A DNA stretch of 64,000 nucleotides from a virus. Lineage: Duplodnaviria > Caudoviricetes. A model generated the notes under the pieces. That model was not told the origin of the DNA and did no database searches. It saw only the letters and a program-made list of their open reading frames with translations. Made by a program: the position numbers and the translations under genes. The first letter of the stretch is position 1, and each line of letters begins with the position of its first letter. Below, one piece after another: positions 8,752-33,744 of this stretch. The stretch lies in IMG/VR virus record IMGVR_UViG_3300021399_000113, positions 32,001-96,000 of that record; one strand, written 5' to 3'.

Positions 8752-8880
8752 TGGCTGTGAATGAAGGACGTCTGATAACACATATTTTAAACGATATGAA
8801 GATTTTAATTTAGAGGAACAAACTCTAATAAAAGAAAAATTTACAGAATATTTTAATTAAGAAAGGAGTTATATATAGTC

Positions 8881-9661
8881 ATGTCAGTACGTGATAATTT
8901 AGGAACACGGCTTAAGACTAATTATGAGTCAGTGCCAAAAACTAAGTTAATGAAAAGAACGCCAGTGGCTATACGTCTTTGACGGCAAAGCCTTCCACAC
9001 CTTTACAAGAGGTATGAGAAAGCCATTTGACGCTATCCTTATGAATTCAATGCAGACAACTATGAGGTATTTGTGTGAACACATCCAAGGTTGTGTTTTT
9101 GGATATACTCAGTCAGATGAAATTACTTTGATTTTAACTGACTATGATAAGTTGACTACAGATGCTTGGTTTGATTATGAAGTACAGAAAGTGTGCAGTA
9201 TTTCAGCTTCTATGGCAACGATGATTTTTAATAAAGCTTTCTCTCAAGCAGTACGAAATTATTCTCTTATGGATTACATTGACATTGATGATAATTATTA
9301 CGATGCATTGTGCAAAGCTGTTAGTGCAGGTGCAATGTTTGATTCTCGTTGCTTCAATATTCCTAAAGAAGAAGTTGCAAATCTTGTGTGGTGGAGGGTG
9401 ATTGACGCTGTTAGAAATTCTATTCAGATGGTGGGTCAGGCAAATTTCAGTCACGCAGAATTGCAGAATAAAAGTCAGAATGATATTAAGCAGATGCTGT
9501 TGGAACAGAAGAATATCTGTTGGGAAGATTTTACCAGTGACTGTAAGAATGGTCTTTGCTATGCTAAGCTTGCAGATGGTTGGACAAGGATTGATACACC
9601 TTTTACACGTGTAGAATTAGGAGCATTGATTGACCCATTGGTATTTAAAGGAGAGCAGTAA
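8881..9661 (+). CDS. Thg1-like 3'-5' polymerase / tRNA-His guanylyltransferase; needs a +1 frameshift at 8977-8983
   Basis: Frame 0 gives MSVRDNLGTRLK..YE...PVAIRL*; +1 frame gives DGKAFHTFTRG..KPFD, GYTQSDEITL, FDSRCF, DAVRNSIQM. Confidence 0.85.
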
Positions 9662-9894
9662 TGCAGAACCTCATTGAAATATGGCAACCACGTTATCACG
9701 ATAAGAAAGTCCTCATTGCCACCTTTAAGGTGTGCAGTGGGGATAATTATATCAAGTTCACTAAGGATAAAAGACTTGCTGGGAAAGTATACAAATGCAG
9801 TGGAGATGTAATTCGTAAATGCCCTATAGAGAGCAATGGGAAGATAGCGTGTTTTGCTGTCCCTATGGAAAATCTTGAATTGGAGTTAGTATGA
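9661..9894 (+). CDS. hypothetical protein
   Basis: 77-aa ORF, AAGGAG RBS, coupled to neighbours. Confidence 0.6.
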   Translation: MQNLIEIWQPRYHDKKVLIATFKVCSGDNYIKFTKDKRLAGKVYKCSGDVIRKCPIESNGKIACFAVPMENLELELV

Positions 9895-33628: not shown

Positions 33629-33703
33629 GGTGTCTGTAACTTAAATGGATAAAGGGCAAGATTGTGACTCTTGAGGATGTAGGTTCGACTCCTACCAGAC
33701 ACC
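33629..33703 (+). tRNA. tRNA-His(GTG) with encoded G-1
   Basis: G-GTGTCTG/CAGACAC-C; CAAGA-TTGTGAC-TCTTG. Confidence 0.9.
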
Positions 33704-33744
33704 CTTAGAATTAAAAAATTGCATTGTATATGATAAATATCCGA

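What the first reader, a model, noticed from the sequence alone, without database searches (positions are those of the whole stretch)
8881..9013. RF2-type +1 frameshift site (CTT TGA C) just before the catalytic Asp of the Thg1-like gene
Seen: ATG 8881 (AAGGAG RBS) reads 33 codons of Thg1-like N-terminus and ends at CTT-TGA (8977-8982). Skipping one base gives L-DGKAFHTF, in frame with the rest (259 aa total). Known: CUU UGA C is the prfB autoregulatory shift site, and RxDG holds a metal-binding Asp of Thg1. Inference: enzyme output could be tied to RF2 availability or translation stress. Caveat: no strong internal SD precedes the site, so a single-T insertion (pseudogene or assembly error) is also possible.
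Basis: partly seen in the sequence, partly recalled or inferred. Interest (0 to 1): 0.72.

Follow-up and report, generated by a model that had tools for sequence, protein, structure and literature searches.

The report
Endonuclease-borne +1 frameshift in phage Thg1
A gut phage's tRNA-repair gene (Thg1-like) is split by one extra T that creates the ribosome-slip site CUU-UGA-C, and the same break recurs in at least four diverged relatives, nearly always right behind a selfish homing-endonuclease gene, so it is most likely a working ribosomal frameshift carried by a mobile element and not a dead gene or a sequencing error.

Summary
ATG 8881 opens a 33-codon ORF that ends CGT CTT TGA C (8974-8983). 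Skipping one T restores R-L-D-G-K-A-F-H and a 259-aa Thg1-like protein. The extra T is real DNA: it is present in three runs from two samples.

My first comparison suggested an ordinary mutation. That comparison was biased, because it kept only the best-scoring, unbroken relatives.

Pattern searches then found the identical CGTCTTTGA[C/T]GG break in 8 more contigs. With the window they make 4 diverged lineages, and one is a prophage of the cultured Eubacterium plexicaudatum ASF492. A T insertion after ATT, GTT or TTT, the usual codons at this position, was found nowhere.

In five contigs a LAGLIDADG homing endonuclease lies directly upstream of ORF1. The window keeps its last 31 codons (8765-8857). 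None of about 235 unbroken Thg1 loci has this endonuclease.

The module (endonuclease, RBS, ORF1, extra T) replaces the native 5' end of otherwise near-identical genes and ends at the T.

ORF1 keeps the Thg1 invariant residues. ORF2 of frameshifted alleles still evolves under purifying selection.

Best reading (about 0.7): a functional prfB-type +1 frameshift that travels with a homing-endonuclease cassette, probably as self-immunity, like T4 gene 60 with MobA. First-stage readers of this scan flagged the same Thg1 site in two other genomes.

The parts
8765..8860 (+). 3' remnant (last 31 codons plus TAA) of a LAGLIDADG homing-endonuclease gene. The rest of the gene is deleted in this phage.
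   Evidence: tblastn with the intact endonuclease of L248 hits 8765-8854. BLASTP gives 19/30 identical to residues 315-344 of 345, E 5e-6. The intact homologues are PF03161 LAGLIDADG_2, E 6e-21 and 2e-19.
8860..8880 (+). Module leader with RBS (AGAAAGGAGTTATAYA), conserved at DNA level in all frameshifted alleles and different from native Thg1 leaders.
   Evidence: Alignment of leaders. The native leader of unbroken sister genes differs.
8881..8982 (+). ORF1: 33 codons encoding the Thg1 N-terminus, ending CTT then TGA in the zero frame.
   Evidence: It keeps 23 of 25 family-invariant columns of the first 45 residues.
8974..8983 (+). Shift site CGT CTT TGA C. Peptidyl-tRNA-Leu on CUU re-pairs with UUU, and GAC (Asp34) is read next.
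   Evidence: The 9-nt core CGTCTTTGA, followed by CGG (TGG in L259), is present in all 9 contigs of 4 lineages.
8981..9661 (+). ORF2 (+1 frame): 226 codons from Asp34 to the stop, the rest of the Thg1-like enzyme including the S-D-E metal site (9113-9121).
   Evidence: It shows no excess of changes at conserved columns compared with unbroken sister proteins.

Best explanation
The Thg1-like gene is expressed through a +1 ribosomal frameshift.

Proposed mechanism (inferred):
- Ribosomes start at ATG 8881 and translate 33 codons.
- They pause with peptidyl-tRNA-Leu on CUU and the poorly terminating UGA-C in the A site.
- A fraction slip one base, so the tRNA pairs with UUU.
- They then read GAC-GGC-AAA and make the full 259-aa enzyme with its catalytic Asp34.

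Origin of the extra T (shown by comparison): it is not a private mutation of this phage. It is the 3' end of a mobile module made of a LAGLIDADG homing endonuclease, its own RBS, and its own diverged copy of the first 31-33 Thg1 codons. This module replaces the native 5' end of Thg1-like genes in unrelated gut phages. This phage has since lost all but the last 31 codons of the endonuclease.

Purpose of the T (inferred): it breaks the endonuclease's target in the most conserved DNA of the gene, the R-x-D-G codons. That would make carriers immune to cutting, while frameshifting keeps the enzyme. The efficiency of the shift is unknown and may be low, because no stimulatory Shine-Dalgarno or RNA structure is present.
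For: 1. Real DNA. Three runs from two samples carry the T. The same break is in an isolate genome, E. plexicaudatum ASF492.

2. Conservation. CGTCTTTGA[C/T]GG sits at the same codon in 9 contigs of 4 lineages. Their ORF1s are only 45-65% identical and their ORF2s 54-62% identical to the window's.

3. Specificity.
- Among 137 distinct unbroken genes, codon 33 is ATT in 98 and CTT in 2.
- CGT plus CTT never occur together.
- An IMG/VR-wide search for [A/G/T]TT+T+GAY with the same downstream sequence found 0 hits. The CTT+T version found 5.

4. Both ORFs are intact, each with an RBS, in 8 of the 9 contigs. The ORF1s keep 21-23 of 25 family-invariant columns, although their closest native N-termini are only 58-82% identical.

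5. Selection continues in the broken state.
- The frameshifted pair L260/L387 differs from three unbroken sister genes by 6 synonymous and 0 non-synonymous fixed codon changes.
- Their terminal branches show 5:1 and 6:1, the same as the unbroken genes.
- L260 against L387 gives dN/dS 0.05.
- The window's product has no more deviations at conserved columns (9 of 117) than unbroken relatives (9-10). Its differences from a 94%-identical sister fall at variable sites (p 0.0015).

6. Link to the mobile element.
- The endonuclease (PF03161) lies directly upstream in 3 lineages.
- Its homologues occur only in frameshifted loci among the 266 loci held.
- L246 and L248 differ by a clean 1156-nt endonuclease indel.
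- L260 against unbroken L030/33/34: ORF2 is 96% identical, while RBS plus ORF1 is 67% identical, with the boundary at the T.
- ORF1 and endonuclease are identical or 98-99% identical in front of ORF2s that differ at half their synonymous sites.

7. The ASF492 host uses CTT TGA C in its own prfB.
Against: - No SD-like sequence lies 3 nt upstream of CUU, and there is no significant local RNA structure (z -0.23), so efficiency could be only a few percent.
- Within lineages the module has spread recently. Part of the intactness of ORF2 could therefore reflect lack of time to decay.
- One copy (L259/L264) is decaying: its endonuclease is in three pieces and ORF2 has a second +1 break.
- The selection tests rest on small numbers of substitutions, and recombination could blur them.
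- The window's own closest frameshift-suspect sister (P0003) could not be read as DNA.
- No protein or ribosome data exist.
- The immunity role is inferred by analogy only. The endonuclease's cut site is not known.
Confidence: 0.7

Rival explanations
1. Null allele carried by a selfish element. The endonuclease cassette spreads by homing even though its extra T kills a dispensable Thg1-like gene. ORF1 and ORF2 look intact only because each invasion is recent.
For: - Within lineages, ORF1 and endonuclease are 98-100% identical while the ORF2s differ at about half their synonymous sites. This shows recent horizontal spread.
- L259/L264 shows decay.
- Thg1 is an accessory insertion that is absent from distant syntenic phages.
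- About 1-3% of family members carry other breaks.
Against: - The site and a Thg1-like ORF1 with its invariant residues persist across modules whose endonucleases are only 50-64% identical.
- The insertion is exclusively associated with the shift-prone CTT, and with C after TGA in 8 of 9 contigs.
- Synonymous changes dominate on frameshifted branches.
- The window lost its endonuclease yet keeps both ORFs undamaged.
Confidence: 0.17
2. Private frameshift mutation of this phage with only accidental, leaky suppression. A T duplicated in CTT GAC automatically yields CTT TGA C.
For: - A T duplication before a GAY codon always creates TGA.
- The first 160 relatives examined were all unbroken.
- Non-programmed suppression of frameshift mutations at about 1% is documented in E. 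coli (PMC10861913).
Against: The identical site occurs in 8 other contigs of 3 further lineages, including an isolate genome. It never occurs with the far commoner ATT codon.
Confidence: 0.04
3. RF2-sensing regulatory switch. The site was selected to tie Thg1 output to RF2 level or translation stress.
For: Any UGA-dependent shift will respond to RF2 activity in principle. The ASF492 host regulates prfB through the same heptamer.
Against: - The site travels with a homing endonuclease and marks the end of a swapped-in module. That explains its presence without a regulatory purpose.
- Hundreds of unbroken homologues do without it.
- No SD stimulator is present.
Confidence: 0.07
4. Sequencing or assembly error at a TTT run.
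For: The window is a metagenome-assembled contig, and only contigs, not raw reads, could be laid on it.
Against: Three runs from two samples agree exactly. Several pipelines called the same truncated products. The same site recurs in unrelated assemblies and in an isolate genome.
Confidence: 0.01

Closest known systems
Phage T4 gene 60 translational bypass carried by the MobA homing-endonuclease element (Bonocora et al. 2011, cited in Manning and Atkins, bioRxiv 10.1101/2022.08.31.505936)
   Same: - A mobile element of about 1.1-1.3 kb made of a homing endonuclease, a diverged homologous replacement of the deleted stretch of the target gene, and a recoding signal at its 3' end. The replacement is 67-81% identical in DNA there and 67% here.
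- It inserts at a metal-binding catalytic motif.
- It has invaded diverged recipients several times.
- In T4 the recoding insert is what protects the carrier from the endonuclease.
   Different: - The endonuclease family is LAGLIDADG, not HNH.
- The target is a Thg1-like gene, not topoisomerase II.
- The recoding event is a single-base +1 shift at CUU_UGA_C, not a 50-nt hop with take-off and landing codons, a hairpin and a nascent-peptide signal.
- The element replaces the 5' end of the gene and does not split it into two genes.
- Protection from cleavage is not shown here.
prfB (release factor 2) autoregulatory +1 programmed frameshift (PMC5009743)
   Same: - The same shift heptamer, CUU UGA C.
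- A short zero-frame ORF1 (33 codons here, 25 in E. coli).
- The functional protein lies in the +1 frame.
- Re-pairing of tRNA-Leu to UUU is expected.
- The site is conserved among diverged homologues.
   Different: - No internal Shine-Dalgarno 3 nt upstream.
- The E-site codon is CGU.
- The product is not the factor that reads the stop codon, so there is no autoregulatory loop.
- The site is carried by a mobile element and is absent from most homologues.
Listeria phage PSA/A118/A500 +1 frameshifts at CCC_UGA (PMC5009743)
   Same: A phage gene with a +1 shift at a slippery codon immediately before UGA, without a prfB-style SD.
   Different: Those shifts add a C-terminal extension to a fraction of a structural protein, giving two products. 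Here the shift is obligatory for the only useful product and lies near the N-terminus.
Bacterial Thg1-like proteins (TLPs), e.g. Bacillus thuringiensis TLP, PDB 4kgk
   Same: E 2e-49 to 4kgk over both halves. R-x-D-G and S-D-E carboxylates are present after read-through. The product is presumably a 3'-5' polymerase that repairs tRNA 5' ends.
   Different: It is encoded in two frames. Activity is untested. The phage tRNA-His already encodes G-1, so adding G-1 to tRNA-His is unlikely to be its essential role.

Membership tests
prfB-type programmed +1 frameshift site | Zero-frame CUU followed by UGA, with the +1 frame open and encoding the functional protein | tested here: met
   CTT 8977-8979, TGA 8980-8982, and the +1 frame is open to 9661 and is Thg1.
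prfB-type programmed +1 frameshift site | C immediately 3' of UGA (weak termination context) | tested here: met
   C at 8983. C is present in 8 of 9 contigs and T in L259. Unbroken genes use GAC in only 58 of 137.
prfB-type programmed +1 frameshift site | Stimulatory internal Shine-Dalgarno 3 nt 5' of CUU | tested here: not met
   The upstream sequence is CCAGTGGCTATACGT in the window and comparable non-SD sequence in the other lineages. The ASF492 host prfB has GAGGGA upstream.
prfB-type programmed +1 frameshift site | Shift site conserved among diverged homologues while flanking synonymous positions vary | tested here: met
   CGTCTTTGA is identical in 4 lineages, and the flanks differ. No T insertion occurs with other codons.
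prfB-type programmed +1 frameshift site | Frameshifting demonstrated and responsive to RF2 | not testable with these tools
   Needs a reporter assay, mass spectrometry or ribosome profiling.
Thg1 / Thg1-like protein (PF04446) | Profile match above the curated cut-off | tested here: met
   100.6 bits against a cut-off of 29.2, E 8e-29.
Thg1 / Thg1-like protein (PF04446) | Catalytic carboxylates (human Asp29, Asp76, Glu77) in place | tested here: met
   Asp34, Asp79 and Glu80 align. Asp34 exists only in the frameshifted product.
Homing-endonuclease element with a recoding signal (T4 MobA / gene 60 type) | Homing endonuclease gene physically joined to the recoded site | tested here: met
   LAGLIDADG_2 lies directly upstream in L248, L245/247/249, L259, L387 and L388. 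The window keeps a 31-codon remnant. L246 has none.
Homing-endonuclease element with a recoding signal (T4 MobA / gene 60 type) | Element carries a diverged homologous replacement of the displaced target segment and ends at the recoding signal | tested here: met
   L260 against L030/33/34: RBS plus ORF1 is 60-62 of 90 identical and ORF2 is 758-768 of 796 identical, with the boundary at the T.
Homing-endonuclease element with a recoding signal (T4 MobA / gene 60 type) | Recoding insert protects the carrier from cleavage by its own endonuclease | not testable with these tools
   Needs in vitro cleavage of alleles with and without the T.
Homing-endonuclease element with a recoding signal (T4 MobA / gene 60 type) | 50-nt coding gap bypassed between matched take-off and landing codons, with an HNH (MobA) endonuclease | tested here: not met
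   The insertion is one base, the endonuclease is LAGLIDADG, and there is no hairpin. It works like this element but is not a member.

The most novel reading that the evidence does not exclude
The single extra T is an anti-homing immunity device. A LAGLIDADG endonuclease that targets the invariant R-x-D-G codons of Thg1-like genes protects its own carrier by a one-base insertion, which amino-acid constraints would otherwise forbid. The insertion is tolerated because it was placed in, or selected into, the optimal shifty-stop context CGU CUU UGA C. If so, prfB-type frameshifts and short ribosome hops at catalytic motifs of phage genes would form one general class of endonuclease-borne recoding modules, with T4 gene 60 as its extreme member.
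Probability: 0.4. Interest if true: 0.85.

Novelty: new variant of a known kind. Interest (0 to 1): 0.78.

Why it matters
Until now a link between a homing endonuclease and translational recoding rested essentially on one system, T4 gene 60 with MobA. The prfB heptamer was regarded as a device peculiar to the release-factor gene.

This case is a second, much simpler form of that link: a one-base insertion read by a +1 shift. It sits inside a catalytic motif and moves between unrelated gut phages.

If confirmed, three things follow:
- Selfish endonucleases could create and spread recoding sites.
- Some "frameshifted pseudogenes" in phage and metagenome annotation would be working genes. Gene callers truncated this one to 215 or 206 aa.
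- A tractable test system exists, because one allele lies in a prophage of the cultured mouse-gut bacterium Eubacterium plexicaudatum ASF492.

Tried and rejected
- **Biased first comparison.** The search for related loci with the read-through protein in IMG/VR and in metagenomes returned only unbroken genes. I first read this as "not conserved".
- **Searches that found nothing.** Exact and degenerate DNA patterns specific to the window's clade found nothing in IMG/VR or GTDB genomes. A search for short N-terminal fragments found no 33-aa ORF1 calls.
- **False lead on introns.** The clustering of truncated N-terminal fragments near residue 45 looked like an intron site. In the one locus I could read (L165) it is a G7 homopolymer indel.
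- **Run data.** No RNA holder was listed among the sequencing runs. The sheep-gut run X4 carries P0003-type substitutions, but its contig starts at 9024, so the site is not covered.
- **Alternative genetic code rejected.** Reading TGA as sense does not give Thg1 sequence in frame 0. The 138.6-kb record has no suppressor or odd-loop tRNA, and its tRNA-Trp is CCA.
- **Transcriptional slippage rejected.** The T run is only 3 long.
- **Downstream RNA stimulator rejected.** z = -0.23.
- **Split two-subunit enzyme rejected.** Asp34 would be in neither piece, and the internal ATG 9014 has AGAGG only 1 nt upstream.
- **Literature.** Searches found no paper linking Thg1-like genes with frameshifting or homing endonucleases.

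Full report
**1. The observation**

The window is part of a 138.6-kb IMG/VR phage record from an animal gut metagenome. At 8881 an ATG behind AAGGAG opens 33 codons that end CGT CTT TGA C (8974-8983). The frame starting at GAC 8981 is open to 9661.

Read through, the 259-aa product matches Pfam Thg1 at E 8e-29 and the Bacillus thuringiensis Thg1-like protein 4kgk at E 2e-49. Asp34, the first residue after the break, aligns with the metal-binding Asp29 of human Thg1. Asp79 and Glu80 align with Asp76 and Glu77.

**2. Is the T real?**

Logan contigs from three runs carry the stretch with no mismatch and no gap: the probable source run (depth 24), a second run of the same sample, and a run of a second sample of the same study. 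Different pipelines called the same truncated 215-aa and 206-aa products. A sequencing error is therefore very unlikely, although minority alleles cannot be seen in contigs.

**3. A misleading first comparison**

Searching IMG/VR and metagenomes with the read-through protein returned 160 loci at 54-69% identity. All were unbroken at R-[ILV]-D-G.

- The nearest proteins in the 15-billion-protein collection were unbroken 259-260-aa forms at 85-89% identity, with Cys or Ile at the Leu position.
- There was also a 215-aa form at 94% identity that starts at the same Met45 as the window's ORF2.
- No stimulatory SD, no RNA structure (z -0.23) and no unusual tRNA were found.
- Other members of the family carry unrelated breaks at a rate of about 1-3%.

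At that point an ordinary, perhaps leaky, mutation seemed most likely. But these searches keep the best-scoring loci, which favours unbroken genes.

**4. The turn**

Notes from other windows of this scan reported the same CGT CTT TGA CGG at the Thg1 motif in other genomes, one of them beside a LAGLIDADG endonuclease. I tested this directly.

- An exact IMG/VR scan for CTT-T-GAY followed by the G-K-A-F-H-T-F codons found five contigs from four metagenomes or genomes. All were frameshifted Thg1 genes.
- A looser pattern added L259, which has TGA T.
- GTDB genomes added a human-gut Clostridia MAG (L387) and the isolate genome of Eubacterium plexicaudatum ASF492 (L388, identical to L245).
- The control pattern, with A, G or T in place of the first C, found nothing.
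- Yet among 137 distinct unbroken genes codon 33 is ATT in 98 and CTT in 2. Arg32 is CGT in only 24, and CGT plus CTT never occur together. In my IMG/VR sample there are 57 distinct unbroken [AGT]TT-GAY contexts and no CTT-GAY context.

The insertion thus exists only in the shift-prone context.

**5. Anatomy of the frameshifted alleles**

With the window there are nine contigs in four lineages.

- Each has a conserved leader (AGAAAGGAGTTATAYA).
- Each has an ORF1 of 31-33 codons ending CGT CTT TGA.
- All but one have a complete ORF2 of 226-269 codons in the +1 frame.
- The ORF1s are only 45-65% identical to one another, and their closest native N-termini are 58-82% identical. They nevertheless keep 21-23 of the 25 family-invariant columns.
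- ORF2 identities to the window are 54-62%.

**6. The homing endonuclease**

- The ORF directly upstream of ORF1 is a LAGLIDADG_2 endonuclease with a NUMOD/HTH tail in L248 (E 6e-21), L245/L247/L249 (2e-19) and L259 (three fragments, 3e-10). The same holds in L387 and L388.
- tblastn with these proteins against all 266 loci held hits only the frameshifted loci and the window, out of about 235 unbroken Thg1 loci with 3-4 kb of flank.
- In the window the hit is 8765-8854, the last 30 residues, 63% identical, E 5e-6. The endonuclease has been deleted except for its 3' end.
- L246 and L248 are the same phage type and differ by a clean 1156-nt endonuclease indel flanked by GAAAG.

**7. A mobile module that ends at the T**

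- By ORF2 the frameshifted genes fall into at least four separate clades, each beside unbroken genes (quick tree).
- L260 (the L246 phage) and the unbroken L030, L033 and L034 belong to one phage group. The upstream gene is about 89% identical and ORF2 is 96% identical, but RBS plus ORF1 is only 67% identical. Identity resumes exactly after the extra T.
- L261, L262 and L247 share an identical ORF1 and 98-99% identical endonucleases. Their ORF2s differ at about half of the synonymous sites, with divergence starting 11-24 nt after the T.
- Between lineages the endonucleases are only 50-64% identical. The module is therefore old, yet its site is unchanged.

**8. Is the gene still used?**

- Between frameshifted alleles ORF2 has dN/dS of 0.05-0.22. 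Much of that divergence predates module arrival.
- More telling is a comparison within one close group. The two frameshifted alleles L260 and L387 share 6 synonymous and 0 non-synonymous fixed differences from three unbroken sisters. Since then they have gained 5:1 and 6:1 synonymous to non-synonymous changes, like the unbroken genes (4:1, 14:4, 6:0).
- The window's product deviates at 9 of 117 strongly conserved columns, the same as its unbroken relatives (9-10). Its 13 differences from the 215-aa sister lie at variable positions (permutation p 0.0015).
- One copy, L259/L264, is decaying. This shows what loss of function looks like in this family.
- The ASF492 host uses CTT TGA C in its own prfB, so its ribosomes do shift at this heptamer.

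**9. Interpretation**

Shown:
- The break is real and recurrent.
- It is specific to CUU_UGA.
- It is physically tied to a LAGLIDADG endonuclease module that replaces the native 5' end of the gene.

Inferred:
- Ribosomes shift +1 at CUU_UGA_C to make the enzyme (confidence about 0.7).
- The T protects the carrier from the endonuclease (about 0.4).

The closest known system is the T4 gene 60 bypass within the MobA element. That element has the same parts: an endonuclease, a 67-81% identical replacement of the target segment, and a recoding signal at its 3' end that blocks nicking (bioRxiv 10.1101/2022.08.31.505936). The present case differs in endonuclease family, target gene and recoding type.

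It shares the heptamer with prfB but lacks the SD stimulator and any autoregulatory logic (PMC5009743).

I found no paper on Thg1-like genes with frameshifts or homing endonucleases.

Within this scan, first-stage readers flagged the same Thg1 site in two other genomes. A follow-up on a phage hydrolase reached a similar conclusion. I used those notes as leads and verified the pattern on independent loci.

**10. Limits**

- No expression or protein data are available.
- Shift efficiency is unknown.
- The endonuclease cut site is unknown.
- The selection tests rest on small counts.
- The tree is the quick version.
- The DNA of the window's nearest relatives could not be fetched.

Noticed in passing
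window 33629-33704: The phage tRNA-His gene encodes G at -1 (33629) opposite discriminator C73 (33704). The Thg1-like enzyme is therefore probably not needed for G-1 addition and more likely repairs tRNA 5' ends. The 138.6-kb record holds 18 tRNA genes in all.
   Followed up: partly
L165:4120-4140 (IMGVR_UViG_3300045988_132409): Another Thg1-like gene is broken at codon 44-46 by a run of 7 G (CGGGGGGGTTC), where 5 or 8 would keep the frame. This could be a homopolymer indel, an error or a slippage site.
   Followed up: partly
proteins P0128, P0150, P0161, P0180, P0181, P0189, P0212, P0213, P0221: Many short N-terminal Thg1 fragments on long contigs end just after F-H-T-F-T-R-G, and several have the tail Q-K-T-I-stop. 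This tail fits an extra A in the A-run of the K-K-P-F-D codons, which again creates ATT TGA. It may be a second recurrent break point in this gene family.
   Followed up: no
L022:3049-3051 and L075:3265-3267: In-frame TAG where the family has Gln17 (L022) and TAA where it has Gln/Lys89 (L075). These could be nonsense mutations or, for L022, possibly TAG read as Gln.
   Followed up: partly
L264 (reverse strand), about 410-430 nt after the shift site: The L259/L264 copy has a second +1 break (TTT A AAT, an extra A before the N-I-P-K-E-E-V codons), and its endonuclease is in three pieces. This is a decaying example of the module.
   Followed up: partly
L389:1500-1540 (Eubacterium plexicaudatum ASF492 prfB): The host prfB has the classical CTT TGA C preceded by GAGGGA, with UCA as the codon before CUU.
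   Followed up: yes
window 8752-9894 compared with L162-L164: Distant syntenic phages (SbcD 38-40% identical) have the clamp-loader genes directly followed by sbcD. The endonuclease remnant, the Thg1 gene and the small ORF 9661-9894 (77 aa, no Pfam match) are therefore an insertion in this phage.
   Followed up: partly
proteins P0002, P0122, P0123 compared with window 8881-9010: The unbroken closest relatives differ from the window mainly in residues 1-42 (13 of 44 against about 7% elsewhere). They share the clade-specific R-L-K-x-N-Y-E. The window's ORF1 therefore looks like a mosaic of native and module sequence.
   Followed up: no
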